Source: a virus (taxonomy: Duplodnaviria > Heunggongvirae > Uroviricota > Caudoviricetes). Taken from it: a stretch of 6,836 bases of DNA. The position numbers and the translations under genes are program-made. Below, piece after piece: positions 1 to 6,375 of the stretch. Location of the stretch: the IMG/VR virus record IMGVR_UViG_2547132127_000012, one strand, 5' to 3'. Numbering within the stretch: position 1 is the first letter of the stretch; each line of letters begins with the position of its first letter. The notes beneath the pieces were generated by a model that had not been told where the DNA came from, searched no databases, and saw nothing but the letters and a program-made list of their open reading frames with translations.

Positions 1-819
1 ATGTGTCAGGTATTTGGTGTATCCAGGAGCGGTTATTACAACTGGGTACAGCATGAACCCTCAGACAGAAAACAAAGTGATGAGCGGCTAAAACTGGAGA
101 TTAAGGTGGCACATATCCGCACTCGCGAAACATATGGAACCCGGCGGCTCCAGACGGAGCTGGCAGAGAATGGCATCATCGTTGGTCGTGACCGACTGGC
201 ATGTCTTCGTAAGGAGCTGAGGCTACGCTGTAAGCAGAAACGCAAGTTCAGAGCGACTACGAACCCGAACCACAATCTGCCAGTTGCGCCAAATCTGCTG
301 AACCAGACGTTCGCTCCTACAGCACCAAATCAGGTCTGGGTGGCGGACCTGACGTATGTTGCCACACAGGAGGGATGGTTGTACCTCGCTGGCATCAAAG
401 ATGTTTATACGTGTGAAATTGTCGGCTACGCCATGGGAGAGCGCATGACAAAAGAGCTGACAGGTAAAGCCCTGTTTATGGCGCTCAGGAGCCAGCGCCC
501 ACCTGCCGGGCTAATCCACCACTCTGATCGAGGTTCACAGTACTGCGCATACGATTACCGGGTCATACAGGAGCAGTCTGGTCTGAAAACATCAATGTCG
601 CGTAAAGGTAACTGTTACGACAACGCTCCGATGGAAAGCTTCTGGGGAACGCTGAAAAATGAGAGCCTGAGCCACTATCGTTTTAATAACCGGGATGAAG
701 CCATCTCAGTAATACGGGAATACATTGAGATTTTCTACAATCGTCAGCGTCGTCACTCTCGTCTGGGGAATATCTCCCCGGCAGCCTTCAGGGAAAAATA
801 TCATCAGATGGCTGCTTAA
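1..819 (+). CDS. IS3-family transposase OrfB (DDE integrase-like catalytic domain), IS600-like
   Basis: 272-aa ORF identical to the OrfB of copy 2. Carries IS3-family/retroviral-integrase-like motifs ([26 protein letters not shown]). Family is established knowledge; the IS600 name is from memory of its OrfA/OrfB. Confidence 0.85.
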
Positions 820-862
820 AAAAAGAACAAATGGTAGTGTCCGCTATTGCCAGTACACCTCA
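1..862 (+). mobile_element. IS3-family insertion sequence (IS600-like), copy 1, 3' portion only (window starts inside the element, at the orfB ATG)
   Basis: Bases 1..862 are identical to 3844..4705 of the complete copy (offset 3843). Both copies end ...gtacacctca, then flanking sequence diverges. The left end and orfA lie upstream of the window. Confidence 0.85.
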
Positions 863-1789
863 GTGAAAGAAGCACCGATTGGTATCGAGGTCATCCCCGC
901 GCACGTCACTGAATATCTGAACAAGGTACTGACTGAAACCGATCATGCCAACCCTGATCCGAAAATCGTGGATATTGCCTGCGGTCGCTCCTCTGCCCCG
1001 ATGCCGCAGCGTGTAACAGAAGAAGGAAAACAGGATGATGAAGAAAAACCGCAGCCATCTGGCGCAATGGCAGATGAACAGGCAACGGCTGAAACAATGG
1101 AACCGGATGCAACTGAACATCATCAGAACACGCAGCCGCTGGATGCTCAGTCACAGGTAAATTCTGTTGATGAGAAATATCAGGAACTGCGGGAAGAACT
1201 CCATGAAGCCCGGAAAAACATTCCGCCCAAAAATCCTGTCGATGCAGACAAATTACTGGCTGCCTCTCGCGGAGAATTTGTTGAAGGGATTAGCGACCCG
1301 AATGATCCGAAATGGATTCCCGGTCATCATATCTCCTCAAATGAAGTCAAAAAAACGGAAAATGAAGTGCGACAGACTGAAGATAAACAGCACCAGAACA
1401 GCGAACCGGAGGAGGGAACACCCTGCAATCAGACTGGCGAGGATAACTGCCCTGACTGTGGCGCGGTGATGGGAGACGCAACTTATCAGGAAACTTTTGA
1501 CGAAAAAAAACCAGATGAAGCACAGGAAGAAGAGCCGAAGAAAACGGAAAAAGCTGATGATTTGTTACCGGAGAACGCTGGCAGCGATCAGCATAATGAT
1601 AGCAATAATGAAACTGGCGAAGATGAACTCAACTGGAAAAAACAGGTGTTGATTGCGGCGGTTTACGGTTTATGTGCGAATCCTGCGTGCATAGCCTATG
1701 CGCCTGCAATCCCTGACATCGCAATGATGATTGCCAACAAGCTTGAAAATTTTGGAGTGACCAGTGATGAGCGCTTACCCGATTTTTGA
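863..1789 (+). CDS. Highly acidic (D/E-rich) low-complexity protein, 3' fragment; 5' end probably removed by the IS insertion
   Basis: The frame is open from inside the IS across the junction at 862/863. The first ATG after the junction (1001) has no Shine-Dalgarno, and no plausible start exists between 863 and 1001. Long D/E/Q-rich tract, a Cys cluster (C-x8-C-x2-C, ...[15 protein letters not shown]...), hydrophobic C-terminus. Stop at 1787-1789 overlaps the next gene's start. Identity unknown; I have a vague, unverifiable impression of resemblance to the acidic central region of Rac RecE. Confidence 0.45.
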
Positions 1790-2039
1790 TCGTATTGAAG
1801 AAATGGCATGGGCTCGCCACTACCAGCAGATCGTTCGTGAAGAAAAAGAAACGGAACTGGCGGACGACCTGGAAAAAGGTCTGCCTCAGCACCTGTTTGA
1901 ATCGCTCTGCATCGACCATTTGCAACGCCACGGTGCCAATAAACAGGCAATCAGCCACGCATTTGATGATGATGTTGAGTTTCAGGAGCGCATGGCAGAA
2001 CACATCCGGTACATGGCTGAAACCATTGCCCACCACTAG
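1767..2039 (+). CDS. Hypothetical 90-aa acidic protein, translationally coupled to the upstream ORF
   Basis: GGAG at 1754-1757, 9 nt before ATG 1767. Start overlaps the upstream stop (1787-1789) by 23 nt. No motif recognised. Confidence 0.5.
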
Positions 2040-2068
2040 GTTGATATTGATTTGGAGGACTAAAATCT

Positions 2069-3166
2069 ATGGCGCTTTTTCAACGAGCAATAAACACACA
2101 GGCCTATCTAAAAGCAGGAATTATGGGGTTTGCTGGCGACGGCAAAACCTACACAGCAAGCGAACTGGCTATTGGTCTGGTAATGCTTATGCGGCAACGG
2201 GGAATTGAAGCTGGTAACCGCCCGGTAATGTTTCTGGACACAGAAACAGGCTCTGACTGGGTTAAACCCCGCTTTGATGCGGAAAATATCGAATTATTTA
2301 CGGCAAAAACCCGCTCGTTTGTTGATCTGCTTGAAGCCATTAATGAAGCGGAAAGCAGCGGTTCCGTAATGATCATCGACTCCATCAGTCACTTCTGGAC
2401 CGGATTATGCGACGAGTATGCCAGACGCCGAAACCGTAAACGAGGACTGGAATTTTCAGGCTGGGCGTGGCTCAAACAGGAGTGGCGACGCTTTACCGAT
2501 CGATTTGTTAACAGTCAGGCGCACATTATTATGTGCGGGCGTGCAGGATATGAGTATGACTTTTTCGAAGGTGATGATGGCAAACGCCAGTTGGCAAAAA
2601 CCGGTATAAAAATGAAAGCAGAAACAGAAACCGGTTATGAACCCTCCATCCTGATCCAGATGGAGAAGCAAATGAACATAGAAACCGGTCAGGTGTGGCG
2701 CACCGCCAGAATACTAAAAGATCGCTCCACCCGTATTGATGGACAGGTATTTTCAAACCCAACATTTAAAAACTTTCTTCCTCATATCGAGTTTCTTAAC
2801 CTGGGAGGTGAACACCCCGGCATCGATACCTCACGGGATAACAGTGAATTATTTGCCAACGACGGTACACCGACATGGCTAAAAGAAAAGCGTGCAAAAG
2901 AAATCGCACTTGATGAAATTATCGAGTTGCTCAACAAGCACCATGGGGGCACCAGTAACGACGCCAAACGCGCAAAAGCTGATTTGCTGGAAAAAACATT
3001 CACCTCCCGCTCATGGGAAAGAATCAAAGGTATGGACTGGCCGACAATCAAAGCTGGTCGTAATGCACTATGGATTGAACTGGAAGGCGTTGAATATGCA
3101 TTCCCGGATCCACAAACACAAAACGAAACGCAACAAGCAGGATACGATGAGAATATTCCGGTGTAA
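2069..3166 (+). CDS. RecA-fold P-loop NTPase (AAA_24/Sak4-like topology) with a ~250-aa C-terminal extension of unknown function
   Basis: GGAGG at 2054-2058, 10 nt before ATG 2069. Walker A GFAGDGKT (aa 20-27), acidic strand motif FLDTETG (aa ~55-61), Walker B VMIIDS (aa ~101-106). This Walker A / D-T-E / hhhhDS order is typical of RecA-like and AAA_24 phage ATPases, not ABC or classical AAA+. Family assignment is from motifs, unverified. Confidence 0.8.
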   Translation: MALFQRAINTQAYLKAGIMGFAGDGKTYTASELAIGLVMLMRQRGIEAGNRPVMFLDTETGSDWVKPRFDAENIELFTAKTRSFVDLLEAINEAESSGSVMIIDSISHFWTGLCDEYARRRNRKRGLEFSGWAWLKQEWRRFTDRFVNSQAHIIMCGRAGYEYDFFEGDDGKRQLAKTGIKMKAETETGYEPSILIQMEKQMNIETGQVWRTARILKDRSTRIDGQVFSNPTFKNFLPHIEFLNLGGEHPGIDTSRDNSELFANDGTPTWLKEKRAKEIALDEIIELLNKHHGGTSNDAKRAKADLLEKTFTSRSWERIKGMDWPTIKAGRNALWIELEGVEYAFPDPQTQNETQQAGYDENIPV

Positions 3167-3216
3167 AACCAAGTGCATTTTGAACACGGTTTTTGAAAAT
3201 ATTAATGGAGGTGTTC

Positions 3217-3405
3217 ATGTATAAAATTACAGCCACTATTGAAAAGGAAGGTGGTTCTCCTACCAGCTGGACAAGATATTCAAAATCTAAACTAACGAAA
3301 TCAGAATGCGAAAAAATGCTCTCAGGGAAAAAAGAAGCAGGCGTTTCCAGAGAGCAGAAAGTAAAACTGATAAATTTTAATTGCGAGAAACTTCTGTCCT
3401 CGTGA
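3217..3405 (+). CDS. Hypothetical 62-aa lysine-rich small protein (MYKITATIEKEGG...)
   Basis: GGAGG at 3207-3211, 5 nt before ATG 3217. Lies 50 nt after the ATPase stop in an AT-rich segment and ends 36 nt before the IS left end. I suspect, but cannot verify, similarity to small Rac-prophage proteins of the ydaC type. Confidence 0.5.
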   Translation: MYKITATIEKEGGSPTSWTRYSKSKLTKSECEKMLSGKKEAGVSREQKVKLINFNCEKLLSS

Positions 3406-3441
3406 GTTGCATTATATCAAAATTAGAACTTCATAGCTGAT

Positions 3442-3470
3442 TGAGATAGCCTGAGTTTAACGGACACTCC
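3442..3470 (+). repeat. IS left terminal inverted repeat (imperfect)
   Basis: Matches the reverse complement of 4677..4705 at the terminal TGAG and the internal CGGACACT block. Confidence 0.5.
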
Positions 3471-3505
3471 TTCCTGAAATAGAATGGCATCAGAAGGAGC
3501 TAATA

Positions 3506-3808
3506 ATGAGCAGAAAAACCCAACGTTACTCTAAAGAGTTCAAAGCCGAAGCTGTCAGAACGGTTCTTGAAAATCAACTTTCGATCAGTGAAGGCGCTTC
3601 CCGATTATCTCTTCCTGAAGGCACTTTAGGACAATGGGTTACCGCCGCCAGAAAAGGGCTCGGTACTCCTGGTTCCCGCACGGTGGCTGAACTGGAATCT
3701 GAAATTCTGCAACTGCGTAAGGCGTTAAATGAAGCTCGCCTTGAGCGCGATATATTAAAAAAAGCAACAGCGTATTTTGCACAGGAGTCGCTGAAAAATA
3801 CGCGTTAA
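3506..3808 (+). CDS. IS3-family transposase OrfA (helix-turn-helix DNA-binding protein with C-terminal leucine-zipper-like region)
   Basis: AGGAG at 3494-3498, 7 nt before ATG 3506. 100-aa protein; the slippery heptamer lies near its 3' end. Confidence 0.9.
   Translation: MSRKTQRYSKEFKAEAVRTVLENQLSISEGASRLSLPEGTLGQWVTAARKGLGTPGSRTVAELESEILQLRKALNEARLERDILKKATAYFAQESLKNTR
3757..3763 (+). other. Programmed -1 ribosomal frameshift slippery heptamer (A AAA AAA) producing the OrfAB fusion transposase
   Basis: AAAAAAA then G at 3757-3764. In the orfA frame it reads ttA AAA AAA Gca. A -1 slip moves codon starts from 2 mod 3 (orfA) to 1 mod 3, the orfB frame (ATG 3844). This is the standard IS3-family arrangement. 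Confidence 0.6.
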
Positions 3809-3843
3809 TCGAACAATGGCGACAACAATTTCCCATTGAAGCG

Positions 3844-4662
3844 ATGTGTCAGGTATTTGGTGTATCCAGGAGCGGTTATTACAACTGGGTACAGCATGAA
3901 CCCTCAGACAGAAAACAAAGTGATGAGCGGCTAAAACTGGAGATTAAGGTGGCACATATCCGCACTCGCGAAACATATGGAACCCGGCGGCTCCAGACGG
4001 AGCTGGCAGAGAATGGCATCATCGTTGGTCGTGACCGACTGGCATGTCTTCGTAAGGAGCTGAGGCTACGCTGTAAGCAGAAACGCAAGTTCAGAGCGAC
4101 TACGAACCCGAACCACAATCTGCCAGTTGCGCCAAATCTGCTGAACCAGACGTTCGCTCCTACAGCACCAAATCAGGTCTGGGTGGCGGACCTGACGTAT
4201 GTTGCCACACAGGAGGGATGGTTGTACCTCGCTGGCATCAAAGATGTTTATACGTGTGAAATTGTCGGCTACGCCATGGGAGAGCGCATGACAAAAGAGC
4301 TGACAGGTAAAGCCCTGTTTATGGCGCTCAGGAGCCAGCGCCCACCTGCCGGGCTAATCCACCACTCTGATCGAGGTTCACAGTACTGCGCATACGATTA
4401 CCGGGTCATACAGGAGCAGTCTGGTCTGAAAACATCAATGTCGCGTAAAGGTAACTGTTACGACAACGCTCCGATGGAAAGCTTCTGGGGAACGCTGAAA
4501 AATGAGAGCCTGAGCCACTATCGTTTTAATAACCGGGATGAAGCCATCTCAGTAATACGGGAATACATTGAGATTTTCTACAATCGTCAGCGTCGTCACT
4601 CTCGTCTGGGGAATATCTCCCCGGCAGCCTTCAGGGAAAAATATCATCAGATGGCTGCTTAA
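3844..4662 (+). CDS. IS3-family transposase OrfB (DDE catalytic domain); in vivo made mainly as OrfAB by -1 frameshift
   Basis: 272-aa ORF identical to 1..819; lies in the -1 frame relative to orfA. Confidence 0.9.
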   Translation: MCQVFGVSRSGYYNWVQHEPSDRKQSDERLKLEIKVAHIRTRETYGTRRLQTELAENGIIVGRDRLACLRKELRLRCKQKRKFRATTNPNHNLPVAPNLLNQTFAPTAPNQVWVADLTYVATQEGWLYLAGIKDVYTCEIVGYAMGERMTKELTGKALFMALRSQRPPAGLIHHSDRGSQYCAYDYRVIQEQSGLKTSMSRKGNCYDNAPMESFWGTLKNESLSHYRFNNRDEAISVIREYIEIFYNRQRRHSRLGNISPAAFREKYHQMAA

Positions 4663-4676
4663 AAAAAGAACAAATG

Positions 4677-4705
4677 GTAGTGTCCGCTATTGCCAGTACA
4701 CCTCA
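4677..4705 (+). repeat. IS right terminal inverted repeat (imperfect)
   Basis: Reverse complement aligns with 3442..3470. The same sequence ends copy 1 at 834..862. Confidence 0.5.
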
Positions 4706-4727
4706 GATTATTAAAAATCAACCACAC

Positions 4728-4756
4728 CCGCCAGTATTCTGTATATTTACTGGCGG
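4728..4756. repeat. 9-bp perfect inverted repeat (ccgccagta N11 tactggcgg) between the IS right end and xis
   Basis: 4728-4736 ccgccagta is the reverse complement of 4748-4756 tactggcgg; the 11-nt spacer is AT-rich. No downstream T-run, so not a canonical intrinsic terminator. Confidence 0.5.
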
Positions 4757-4778
4757 TCATATCGTGAGAGGTATGGCA

Positions 4779-5060
4779 ATGAATCTTGTGACACTCAAAA
4801 CGTGGGGAAAACTCAGATATCCGGATAACCCACCATCAATATCAACGCTGAGACGATGGGCAAGGAATGGAAACATTTATCCTGCACCTGCACTACACGG
4901 GAGGAGTTACAGGGTGGTTCCGGAGGCTTTCTATATCAACCCAAATAAGGTTGATACCGATATAACACACCATCAGCCTAATGGGCGACAAGGGAGAGAC
5001 AGTCCGTTAATGGAGAAGTTAAAACATGCAGCGGAAAAAATACGATCCCAATTTGCCTAG
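4779..5060 (+). CDS. xis: Excisionase (lambda Xis-like, winged-helix recombination directionality factor)
   Basis: GAGAGG at 4765-4770, 8 nt before ATG 4779. Product MNLVTLKTWGKLRYPDNPPSISTLRRWARNGNIYPAPALHGRSYRV... resembles lambda Xis (MYLTLQEWNARQRRPRSLETVRRWVRECRIFPPP...). Overlaps int by 35 nt, as in lambda xis-int. The track's longer ORF start (4674) lies inside the IS and is rejected. Confidence 0.7.
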   Translation: MNLVTLKTWGKLRYPDNPPSISTLRRWARNGNIYPAPALHGRSYRVVPEAFYINPNKVDTDITHHQPNGRQGRDSPLMEKLKHAAEKIRSQFA

Positions 5061-6200: not shown

Positions 6201-6233
6201 GACGTTTGCAACTAATTGATTTTAAATACAATT

Positions 6234-6267
6234 AAAAAAAGACCGAATACGATTCCTGTATTCGGTC
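6234..6267 (-). terminator. Intrinsic terminator of SdsR (10-bp perfect stem, 7-nt loop, then U7 on the minus strand)
   Basis: gaccgaatac (6241-6250) pairs with gtattcggtc (6258-6267); loop gattcct. A7 at 6234-6240 on the plus strand is U7 on the minus strand directly after the hairpin. Confidence 0.8.
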
Positions 6268-6336
6268 CAGGGAAATGGCTCTTGGGAGAGAGCCGTGCGC
6301 TAAAAGTTGGCATTAATGCAGGCTTAGTTGCCTTGC
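6235..6336 (-). ncRNA. sdsR: SdsR (RyeB) small regulatory RNA, RpoS-dependent, ~102 nt
   Basis: Minus strand reads GCAAGGCAACTAAGCCTGCATTAATGCCAACTTTTAGCGCACGGCTCTCTCCCAAGAGCCATTTCCCTGGACCGAATACAGGAATCGTATTCGGTC then a T-run, which matches my recollection of enterobacterial SdsR. Internal hairpin ggctct...agagcc, terminal terminator, sigma-S-type -10 just upstream. Confidence 0.8.
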
Positions 6337-6339
6337 CCT

Positions 6340-6375
6340 TTAAGAATAGATGACGACGCCAGGTTTTCCAGTTTG
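6340..6375 (-). promoter_or_regulatory. Sigma-S-type promoter of sdsR
   Basis: On the minus strand, -14 to -4 relative to the proposed start (6336) reads TCTATTCTTAA, close to the sigma-S extended -10 consensus TCTATACTTAA including the -13 C. No clear -35, as is usual for sigma-S promoters. Confidence 0.5.

What the first reader, a model, noticed from the sequence alone, without database searches (positions are those of the whole stretch)
863..1789. Extremely acidic, low-complexity ORF with a Cys cluster: DNA-mimic-like composition, 5' end lost to the IS
The product is dominated by D/E/Q/N/P/T and carries C-x8-C-x2-C ([15 protein letters not shown]) before a short hydrophobic tail. Highly acidic phage proteins in early regions are often DNA mimics (Ocr, ArdA, Gam-like inhibitors). 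Alternatively it may be the acidic linker of a large RecE-type protein whose catalytic part is absent here. Either way the gene is probably a fragment.
Basis: partly seen in the sequence, partly recalled or inferred. Interest (0 to 1): 0.45.

Follow-up and report, generated by a model that had tools for sequence, protein, structure and literature searches.

The report
IS600-truncated recE-like pseudogene fragment
The acidic ORF is the orphaned back half of a RecE-like prophage gene in Shigella flexneri, cut off from its front half by an IS600-mediated rearrangement; it is a dead remnant, not a new DNA-mimic protein.

Summary
The ORF at 863-1789 is real: 308 codons, pI 4.4, net charge -39, a Cys cluster and a hydrophobic tail. 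It is not an independent gene.

- **Source.** The window matches Shigella flexneri 5 str. 8401 exactly.
- **Parent gene.** The ORF equals residues 345-652 of a 652-aa "RecE family" gene that is intact in IS-free E. coli prophages. Its first 253 residues are 74% identical to K-12 RecE 328-585.
- **No nuclease.** Homology stops just before RecE's nuclease domain. A conserved ~55-aa two-helix tail replaces it. The tail is found only in this family and, in every context read, is followed by an overlapping gam gene.
- **Truncation.** The IS600 copy upstream has chromosomal pgrR on its other side and no target duplication. The 5' half was therefore removed by an IS-mediated rearrangement, probably an inversion.
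- **Expression.** I found no promoter-like site and no Shine-Dalgarno-like motif, and the breakpoint lies inside a folded helical domain.
- **Fold.** AlphaFold gives mostly disordered acidic linkers around three islands: a helix motif, a degenerate zinc ribbon and the tail. In intact alleles these islands have dN/dS of about 0.1.

Its alternative, a RecE acidic linker lacking the catalytic part, is essentially right. Nuclease-less RecE relatives are already noted in the literature. This is ordinary and of low interest.

The parts
1..862 (+). Right-hand part of an IS600 copy (orfB 1-819, right terminal repeat ending ...CACCTCA at 862). The window starts inside the element.
   Evidence: Identical over all 862 nt to the second copy at 3844-4705. 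E. coli hits are annotated IS3-like IS600 transposase. In the source genome its left flank is a pgrR fragment, and the flanks (GGA / GTG) do not form a 3-bp target duplication.
863..1789 (+). 3' fragment (308 codons plus stop) of a nuclease-less recE-family gene; a pseudogene remnant.
   Evidence: Equals residues 345-652 of the intact 652-aa ORF in E. coli FDAARGOS_944. 74% identical to K-12 RecE 328-585, E 1e-122. NCBIfam NF007259 positions 339-596, 379.7 bits against a cutoff of 1269. phrog_607.
863..997 (+). Residues 1-45: the last two helices of the parent's central helical domain, severed from the rest by the IS.
   Evidence: In the AF2 model of P0004, residues 1-260 form a confident helical domain (10-residue block means mostly 79-95, apart from a loop at 123-135). 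The breakpoint corresponds to P0004 residue 213. In the fragment model, helices 12-24 and 33-39 have pLDDT of only 62-68.
1148..1315 (+). Residues 96-151: conserved helix ([19 protein letters not shown]) plus the motif [25 protein letters not shown].
   Evidence: Many invariant or near-invariant columns. This is the only confident part of the fragment model, pLDDT 73-84. dN/dS is 0.14-0.16 between the three divergent pairs of intact alleles; the closely related L001/L004 pair is uninformative here (dS 0.013).
1424..1498 (+). Residues 188-212: degenerate zinc-ribbon-like motif C-x7-C-x2-C followed by [12 protein letters not shown].
   Evidence: K-12 RecE and 85 of 120 homologs have CxxC-x7-CxxCG. 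This allele and the intact L001 allele lack the first Cys. dN/dS 0.10-0.16. AF2 confidence is low.
1622..1786 (+). Residues 254-308: C-terminal tail that replaces the RecE nuclease domain. Predicted helix-turn-helix hairpin, hydrophobic.
   Evidence: Homology to RecE ends at residue 253 (ETGE). The tail has no similarity to RecE 586-866: score 21 against a shuffled mean of 25.5. phmmer over 1.84 billion representatives gives 7 hits, all at the C-terminus of the protein; those I read are RecE-like proteins or short ORFs matching this same gene's 3' end. Helices 255-272 and 274-295. dN/dS 0.06-0.14.
1764..2039 (+). gam (host-nuclease inhibitor), overlapping the fragment's 3' end by 26 nt (23 nt from the ATG at 1767); shortened by a CAG>TAG nonsense change (91 aa against 99 aa).
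   Evidence: Pfam PF06064, E 3.9e-52. The intact version is in L001. gam follows the tail-bearing ORF in every context examined.
2069..3166 (+). AAA_24 / Sak4-like ATPase gene. It occupies the position that bet and exo hold in sister prophages.
   Evidence: PF13479, E 4.3e-15. phrog_1366, and a weak match to phrog_124 'Sak4-like ssDNA annealing protein'. Sister loci carry gam-bet-exo.
3442..4705 (+). Complete second IS600 copy (1264 bp), a simple insertion between the DUF1187 gene and xis. Target duplication GAT at 3439-3441 and 4706-4708.
   Evidence: Junction sequences compared with the empty site in L001. This copy is absent from S. flexneri locus L011.

Best explanation
**What it is.** The ORF is the non-functional 3' remnant of a recE-family gene. 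It sits in a degraded Rac-like prophage next to yebY in Shigella flexneri 5 str. 8401.

**The parent gene.** It is intact at 652-691 aa in some E. coli prophages and in Shigella phage 75/02 Stx, and it is the first gene of the phage recombination (Rec) module. It has these parts in order:
- RecE's N-terminal Exonuc_VIII domain;
- a central helical domain;
- a long acidic, mostly disordered region containing a conserved helix motif and a small zinc-ribbon motif;
- a conserved ~55-residue two-helix tail in place of RecE's PD-(D/E)XK nuclease domain.

The tail's coding sequence overlaps the start of gam. After gam come either bet-exo or a Sak4-like ATPase.

**What happened in Shigella.** An IS600 element landed at codon 344/345, inside the central folded domain. 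Recombination with another IS600 copy in pgrR then separated the 5' half and the rest of the prophage from this piece, most likely by an inversion of about 0.5 Mb.

**Consequence.** The remaining piece has no promoter or ribosome-binding site of its own and starts in the middle of a domain. It is best read as an untranslated or unstable pseudogene.

**Shown:**
- homology, breakpoint, flanks and domain layout;
- absence of a nuclease domain;
- purifying selection on three islands in intact alleles.

**Inferred:**
- inversion rather than another type of rearrangement;
- lack of expression;
- that in the intact protein the acidic region is a flexible tether carrying short docking or metal-binding modules for an accessory role in phage recombination.
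For: **Source.**
- Exact match of the whole window to CP000266.1.

**Parent gene and RecE homology.**
- IS-free E. coli relatives at 98.8-99.3% nucleotide identity encode an intact 652-aa ORF whose residues 345-652 equal the fragment.
- Fragment residues 1-253 align to K-12 RecE 328-585 at 74% identity, E 1e-122. Homology stops at ETGE, before the nuclease domain PF12684 at 615-850.
- NF007259 matches positions 339-596 only.

**The tail.**
- It is conserved in three subtypes.
- It is restricted to this family among 1.84 billion representative proteins.
- dN/dS in intact alleles: tail 0.06-0.14, zinc ribbon 0.10-0.16, helix motif about 0.15 in the divergent pairs, linkers mostly 0.6-0.9.
- gam follows immediately in all contexts read.

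**The rearrangement.**
- The IS600 left flank is pgrR, with no target duplication.
- Gene order runs ogt...pgrR' (descending in K-12 terms) joined to yebY...yebF (ascending).

**Expression and fold.**
- No promoter-like site and no Shine-Dalgarno-like motif at candidate starts.
- AF2: fragment mean pLDDT 53.5, with 152 of 308 residues below 50. The breakpoint lies inside the confident helical domain of the parent model.

**Annotation and literature.**
- RefSeq annotates the relatives as 'RecE family exodeoxyribonuclease'.
- PMC12315714 notes nuclease-less 'RecE-2' proteins in lambdoid Rec modules.
Against: - The 308-codon frame is still free of stops in the six S. flexneri loci that could be compared base by base, with at most 2 substitutions. 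Some pipelines call it as a gene. This is expected for a recent clonal event and is not evidence of function.
- The frame is open upstream into IS600 to a TTG at 725. IS3-family ends can drive outward transcription (general knowledge), so some translation cannot be excluded.
- The other inversion junction, carrying the 5' half, was not recovered.
- Lack of expression was not tested with any expression data.
Confidence: 0.9

Rival explanations
1. The ORF encodes a stand-alone acidic DNA-mimic or anti-restriction protein (Ocr/ArdA/Gam-like) of the prophage early region.
For: - Extreme acidity: pI 4.38, net charge -39.
- Location in the early-left recombination/anti-nuclease region, next to gam.
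- Acidic disordered tails of DNA-binding proteins can compete with DNA (general knowledge).
Against: - It is a 3' fragment of a 652-aa gene and has no start of its own.
- It is 74% identical to RecE 328-585.
- No Pfam (E<=0.1) or PADLOC (E<=0.01) match to any mimic or anti-defence family.
- The acidic stretches are the fastest-evolving parts, with dN/dS mostly 0.6-0.9, and are predicted disordered. Known mimics present a rigid charge array instead.
Confidence: 0.04
2. The truncated ORF is still expressed, through read-out transcription from IS600 and an internal or TTG/GTG start. It would then supply a functional C-terminal module (zinc ribbon plus tail) that works with the downstream Gam and Sak4-like ATPase.
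For: - The frame is intact in the six S. flexneri genomes compared.
- It is open into the IS to TTG 725.
- The downstream AAA_24 gene is intact, and the tail's coding sequence overlaps gam as in functional phages.
- The retained islands are the selected parts of the parent.
Against: - No promoter-like site and no Shine-Dalgarno-like motif.
- gam itself has acquired a nonsense codon in most of these genomes.
- The rest of the prophage has been separated from this piece.
- The first 45 residues are a broken piece of a folded domain.
- Sequence conservation is explained by the clonal recency of S. flexneri.
Confidence: 0.06
3. The fragment derives from a true RecE exonuclease whose nuclease domain was deleted secondarily in this lineage. 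On this view the tail is meaningless read-through sequence created by a deletion that fused recE to DNA upstream of gam.
For: - PGAP flags the intact E. coli allele as 'incomplete; missing C-terminus'.
- The joint lies exactly where the nuclease, DEDDh and tail variants diverge (ETGE).
Against: - The tail exists in three diverged subtypes with an invariant core. Its dN/dS is 0.06-0.14 while dS is 0.7-1.7.
- It occurs in 106 of 5426 complete E. coli genomes and in Shigella phage 75/02 Stx, deposited as a complete phage genome.
- PGAP itself accepts the 665- and 690-aa versions as intact proteins.
Confidence: 0.05

Closest known systems
RecE (exodeoxyribonuclease VIII) of the Rac prophage, E. 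coli K-12 (866 aa; NCBIfam NF007259; Pfam PF06630 + PF12684)
   Same: - The fragment aligns to RecE 328-585 at 74% identity, and the intact parent aligns to RecE 1-585 at 69%.
- Same position in a Rac-like early-left operon: after the ydaE/racC-like genes and before xis-int.
- Same acidic region, conserved helix motif and Cys motif.
- This is the part of RecE whose function is recorded as unknown (PMC11611040).
   Different: - No PD-(D/E)XK nuclease domain; a 55-aa tail takes its place.
- Followed by gam and a Sak4-like ATPase (or bet-exo) instead of recT.
- The zinc motif has 3 rather than 4 Cys.
- The window copy additionally lacks residues 1-344.
'RecE-2' nuclease-less RecE relatives of lambdoid phage Rec modules (Genome Res 2025, PMC12315714)
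   Same: RecE-related, lacking a nuclease domain, encoded in the early-left recombination module, role unknown. The tail-bearing 652-691 aa proteins found here fit that description.
   Different: The paper calls its examples 'distantly related' to Rac RecE, whereas this allele is 69-74% identical over the shared region. Its supplementary tables were not available, so I could not check whether the same proteins are meant. The paper does not describe the conserved tail or its linkage to gam.
RecE-linker fused to a DnaQ-like DEDDh 3'-5' exonuclease (PF16473; 534-539 aa E. coli / E. albertii prophage proteins)
   Same: They share the acidic region, helix motif and 4-Cys zinc ribbon, at 57-58% identity over 79% of the fragment. 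They diverge at the same ETGE joint.
   Different: They carry a DEDDh exonuclease after the joint instead of the tail. They lack the PF06630 N-terminal domain. In the one context read they are followed directly by xis-int, with no gam or annealase.
Acidic DNA-mimic proteins (lambda Gam, T7 Ocr, ArdA)
   Same: Strongly negative net charge and an early-region location.
   Different: No sequence relationship. Predicted disorder instead of a rigid mimic surface. Part of a large multidomain protein rather than a small dedicated inhibitor. A genuine Gam is encoded immediately downstream.

Membership tests
RecE / exodeoxyribonuclease VIII (NF007259 equivalog) | Whole-protein score at or above the curated cutoff (1269 bits) | tested here: not met
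   The fragment scores 379.7 bits (model positions 339-596). The intact parent scores 872.5 bits (positions 1-596). K-12 RecE scores 1830 bits.
RecE / exodeoxyribonuclease VIII | C-terminal PD-(D/E)XK nuclease domain (PF12684; RecE residues ~564/606-866) | tested here: not met
   No PF12684 hit in the fragment or in the intact 652-aa relative; it is present in K-12 RecE at 615-850. The tail has no similarity to RecE 586-866.
RecE / exodeoxyribonuclease VIII | N-terminal Exonuc_VIII domain (PF06630) | tested here: not met
   Absent from the window ORF. Present at residues 2-182 of the intact relative. It was lost from this locus through the IS600 breakpoint.
RecE / exodeoxyribonuclease VIII | Homology to the RecE central/acidic region (residues 328-585) | tested here: met
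   74% identity, E 1e-122; phrog_607 E 4.7e-69.
RecE / exodeoxyribonuclease VIII | Cognate annealase gene recT immediately downstream | tested here: not met
   Downstream genes are gam and an AAA_24/Sak4-like ATPase. K-12 has recT.
Nuclease-less RecE-like ('RecE-2') Rec-module proteins | RecE-related sequence, no nuclease domain, encoded in a lambdoid early-left Rec module | tested here: met
   for the intact parents; the description is in PMC12315714. Identity with the paper's own set could not be checked.
DNA-mimic proteins (Gam PF06064, Ocr, ArdA) | Sequence membership in a known mimic family | tested here: not met
   Zero Pfam families at E<=0.1 for the fragment; no PADLOC hit at E<=0.01.
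DNA-mimic proteins | Folded, rigid scaffold presenting a DNA-like array of carboxylates | tested here: not met
   The acidic stretches 46-61, 65-73 and 160-253 have pLDDT below 50 and no secondary structure. A prediction only.
DNA-mimic proteins | Binding to and inhibition of a DNA-binding enzyme | not testable with these tools
   Requires biochemistry.
Four-Cys zinc ribbon (CxxC...CxxC) | Four metal-ligand cysteines | tested here: not met
   The window and L001 alleles have C-x7-C-x2-C, three Cys. K-12 RecE and 85 of 120 homologs have CxxC-x7-CxxCG. Metal binding itself is not testable here.
IS600 (IS3 family) simple insertion | 1264-bp element flanked by a 3-bp target duplication | tested here: not met
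   The copy abutting the ORF has flanks ...GGA (pgrR) and GTG... (recE'), with no duplication. The second copy at 3442-4705 does meet it, with GAT/GAT.

The most novel reading that the evidence does not exclude
The tail-bearing, nuclease-less RecE-like protein may be a distinct accessory factor of lambdoid recombination modules rather than a nuclease.

- Its conserved C-terminal helical hairpin is always encoded overlapping gam. It may dock onto Gam, RecBCD or the partner annealase, or anchor the protein at the membrane.
- Its long acidic disordered region may act as a DNA-like decoy or tether.
- On this reading the Shigella fragment, which keeps exactly the selected islands, might still be made at a low level from IS600 read-out transcription.
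Probability: 0.1. Interest if true: 0.5.

Novelty: already known. Interest (0 to 1): 0.15.

Why it matters
For this window it matters little. It is one more IS-disrupted prophage gene in Shigella flexneri, a genome known for IS expansion and pseudogenisation. Recognising it prevents mis-annotating it as a hypothetical acidic protein or as a DNA mimic.

The useful by-product concerns the parent family.
- The roughly 585-residue N-terminal part of RecE has a function still recorded as unknown, although full-length RecE improves linear-linear recombineering (PMC11611040).
- That part exists in nature as a separately selected protein without any nuclease domain.
- It ends in a conserved family-specific tail and is always coupled to gam.
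- This gives a natural separation-of-function allele for asking what the RecE N-terminal region does.

Tried and rejected
- **Exact scan of genome contigs** with the 50-nt IS/ORF junction: 0 hits. That collection appears not to hold this junction. The source was found instead through the exact AAA_24 protein.
- **Junction searches in complete E. coli genomes:** no genome shares either IS600 junction.
- **tblastn of the 57-aa tail against phages:** 'No match'. This is a false negative, because phage 75/02 Stx encodes a tail about 70% identical. It was probably caused by the low-complexity filter and the short query.
- **Pfam, PHROG and PADLOC on the tail or fragment:** nothing beyond RecE-type PHROGs.
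- **PDB sequence search with the 652-aa parent:** no hit at E<=1.
- **Search for the missing 5' half in Shigella** using the N-terminal 344 aa: only contig-end partial proteins, none with an IS600 junction.
- **Transmembrane reading of the tail:** considered because the hydropathy score is 1.72. Judged unproven because a third tail variant carries D/E residues in the second half and AF2 gives a helix-turn-helix of modest confidence.
- **Antisense ORFs at 860-1154:** no homology or RNA-family support.
- **Supplementary tables of PMC12315714:** not held.

Full report
**1. Observation**

The frame at 863-1789 is open for 308 codons and ends in TGA. It stays open upstream into the insertion sequence as far as a TTG at 725.

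- The translated product has pI 4.38, 67 D+E against 28 K+R (net -39), and 47.7% D/E/Q/N/P/T.
- Cys188, Cys196 and Cys199 lie in [15 protein letters not shown].
- A hydrophobic stretch occupies residues about 258-297, with a best 19-residue hydropathy score of 1.72.
- None of the in-frame start codons has a Shine-Dalgarno-like motif upstream.
- No sigma-70-like promoter was found between 600 and 2200, where shuffles give 1.5.
- Rfam finds nothing on either strand in this interval.

The description is therefore confirmed apart from the Cys spacing.

**2. Where the window comes from**

The AAA_24 protein encoded at 2069-3166 occurs with identical sequence in several Shigella flexneri genomes. 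The whole 6836-nt window matches S. flexneri 5 str. 8401 (CP000266.1) exactly.

The window is the left arm of a Rac-like prophage remnant beside yebY. In order it contains:
- the partial IS600 copy;
- the acidic ORF;
- gam;
- the AAA_24/Sak4-like ATPase gene;
- a DUF1187 gene;
- the second IS600 copy;
- xis and int;
- the RyeA/SdsR sRNA locus;
- yebY.

**3. What the ORF is**

Megablast against complete E. coli genomes finds IS-free prophages that are 98.8-99.3% identical over 863-3442. The overlapping gene there is annotated 'RecE family exodeoxyribonuclease'.

In E. coli FDAARGOS_944 the frame is a continuous 652-codon ORF starting MSTKPLFLLRK. The window ORF corresponds to its residues 345-652. 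It differs at 13 codons, all within the first 111.

- Against K-12 RecE (866 aa), the intact protein aligns over RecE 1-585 at 69% identity. The fragment aligns to RecE 328-585 at 74%, E 1e-122.
- Homology ends at the shared ...SDETGE. RecE continues into its PD-(D/E)XK nuclease domain (PF12684, 615-850). This protein continues with a 55-residue tail unrelated to that domain: local score 21 against a shuffled mean of 25.5.
- NCBIfam's exodeoxyribonuclease VIII model matches positions 339-596 only, far below its cutoff.

Its first suggestion, a DNA mimic, has no support from Pfam or PADLOC.

**4. The nuclease-less form is a real gene, not a local accident**

Tail-bearing proteins of 652-691 aa are intact in several places:
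- E. coli R1, at the same yebY site;
- E. coli O104:H4 2011C-3493;
- Shigella phage 75/02 Stx, deposited as a complete phage genome.

The tail DNA occurs in 106 of 5426 complete E. coli genomes. A full HMMER scan of 1.84 billion representative proteins with the tail alone returns seven hits, every one at the C-terminus of the protein; those I read are RecE-like proteins or short ORFs matching this same gene's 3' end.

Three tail subtypes share an invariant core, W-K-x-Q-x-x-IAA-x-x-GLCANPA...IP-x-x-A-x-MIAN.

Pairwise Nei-Gojobori estimates between four intact alleles give:
- tail: dN/dS 0.06-0.14;
- Cys motif: 0.10-0.16;
- helix/[10 protein letters not shown] block: 0.14-0.16 in the divergent pairs;
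- acidic linkers: mostly 0.6-0.9.

The segments are short, so the values are noisy, but they agree across pairs.

In every context I read, gam starts inside or at the end of the tail codons. It is followed by bet plus a lambda-type exo, or by the AAA_24/Sak4-like ATPase (window).

A third architecture fuses the same acidic region to a DnaQ-like DEDDh exonuclease (PF16473) at the same ETGE joint. ETGE is thus a module boundary where three different C-terminal units have been exchanged.

**5. Structure**

AlphaFold2 on the fragment, with 89 aligned homologs, gives mean pLDDT 53.5. Of 308 residues, 152 are below 50.
- Confident parts are only helix 96-118 plus 128-135 and the adjoining motif (pLDDT 73-84).
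- The tail forms two helices, 255-272 and 274-295 (pLDDT 53-65).
- The Cys motif is not modelled confidently.

A model of the longer homolog P0004 shows a confident all-helical domain over its residues 1-260. The IS breakpoint maps to residue 213 of that domain. The fragment therefore begins with two orphan helices of a broken fold.

**6. How the gene was broken**

The IS600 copy abutting the ORF ends at 862 (...CACCTCA).

- In the source genome its other end abuts a fragment of the chromosomal regulator gene pgrR. The flanks are ...GGA and GTG..., so there is no 3-bp target duplication.
- To the left, the order is ogt, fnr, uspE, ynaJ, ynaI, mppA, pgrR'. This is the reverse of the K-12 order around 1.39-1.40 Mb.
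- To the right, the order yebY...yebF follows the K-12 order around 1.92-1.93 Mb.

A head-to-head join of this kind is what recombination between two inverted IS600 copies produces, so an inversion is the likeliest event (inference). I could not recover the reciprocal junction.

The second IS600 (3442-4705, 1264 bp) is a simple insertion with a GAT duplication. The empty site is visible in E. coli, and the copy is absent from one S. flexneri genome. In that genome gam is also still full length. Decay of the module is therefore stepwise and ongoing.

**7. Mechanism and function**

For the window feature, the mechanism is gene inactivation. It has lost its start, its promoter, its first 344 codons and the integrity of its central domain. 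It is best treated as a pseudogene (confidence about 0.9).

Its intact frame in the six S. flexneri genomes compared, with at most 2 substitutions, is what a recent clonal event predicts.

For the intact parent, the region covered by the finding is a flexible acidic tether. It carries three constrained modules: a helix motif, a small Cys motif that is a 4-Cys zinc ribbon in most relatives, and the terminal helical hairpin. The most likely role is an accessory or scaffolding one in phage double-strand-end processing, for two reasons:
- it always heads a Rec module;
- full-length RecE, but not the nuclease domain alone, boosts linear-linear recombination (PMC11611040).

This last step is inference.

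**8. Comparison with what is known**

- The N-terminal region of RecE is recorded as being of unknown function (PMC11611040).
- A 2025 survey of lambdoid Rec modules reports 'RecE-2' proteins related to RecE but lacking a nuclease domain, roles unknown. It also reports DnaQ-like nucleases in Rec modules (PMC12315714).
- RefSeq already labels these genes RecE family, sometimes as pseudogenes for 'missing C-terminus'.

The fragment is therefore already explained. The tail's strict family restriction, its purifying selection and its linkage to gam are details I did not find described. They concern the parent family, not this window.

**9. Verdict**

- Observation: confirmed.
- DNA-mimic reading: rejected.
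- RecE-linker-fragment reading: accepted, with the refinement that the parent allele is naturally nuclease-less.
- Novelty: already known.
- Interest: low (0.15).

Noticed in passing
window 3223-3401 (-), overlapping the DUF1187 gene at 3193-3405: A full-length RalA antitoxin sRNA (Rfam RF02694, 216 bits) is present, but the ralR toxin gene that precedes DUF1187 in sister prophages (L004, L019) is absent. The AAA_24 gene ends at 3166. It looks like an orphan antitoxin.
   Followed up: partly
window 1764-2039: gam carries a CAG>TAG nonsense change that removes the last 8 codons (91 aa here; the E. coli relative L001 reads 99 aa from the same GTG start). In some S. flexneri genomes (L008, L011) gam is still called at full length (98 aa). 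This suggests stepwise decay of the module.
   Followed up: partly
window 1-862 and 3442-4705: Two IS600 copies in direct orientation, identical over the 862 nt that can be compared, bracket 2.6 kb (recE'-gam-AAA_24-DUF1187). This is a composite-transposon-like arrangement that is also primed for deletion by IS-IS recombination.
   Followed up: partly
L005 7380-7540 (left of the window) with window 863: The first IS600 joins the 3' part of chromosomal pgrR to the prophage recE fragment without a target duplication. Gene order relative to K-12 indicates a large IS600-mediated inversion between about 1.39 and about 1.92 Mb (K-12 coordinates).
   Followed up: partly
window 2069-3166: A 365-aa AAA_24 ATPase (phrog_1366; weak match to Sak4-like annealase phrog_124) sits where bet and exo lie in sister prophages. 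This gives a gam + Sak4-like Rec module with no recognisable nuclease. There is no NCBIfam or PADLOC family for it.
   Followed up: partly
window 6230-6374: The convergent sRNA pair SraC/RyeA (+) and SdsR/RyeB (-) lies between the prophage integrase gene and yebY, marking the chromosomal side of the attachment site.
   Followed up: no
window 4674-5060: The mechanically listed 128-aa xis ORF begins inside the right end of IS600. The Excisionase domain starts at residue 39, and other assemblies call a 93-aa product, so the real start is probably the ATG at about 4776-4782 (MAMNLVTL).
   Followed up: no
L001 4969-6643 (E. coli FDAARGOS_944): PGAP marks the intact 652-codon nuclease-less allele as a pseudogene ('missing C-terminus'), yet accepts the 665- and 690-aa versions in other genomes as proteins. 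The inconsistency probably comes from comparison with full-length RecE.
   Followed up: yes
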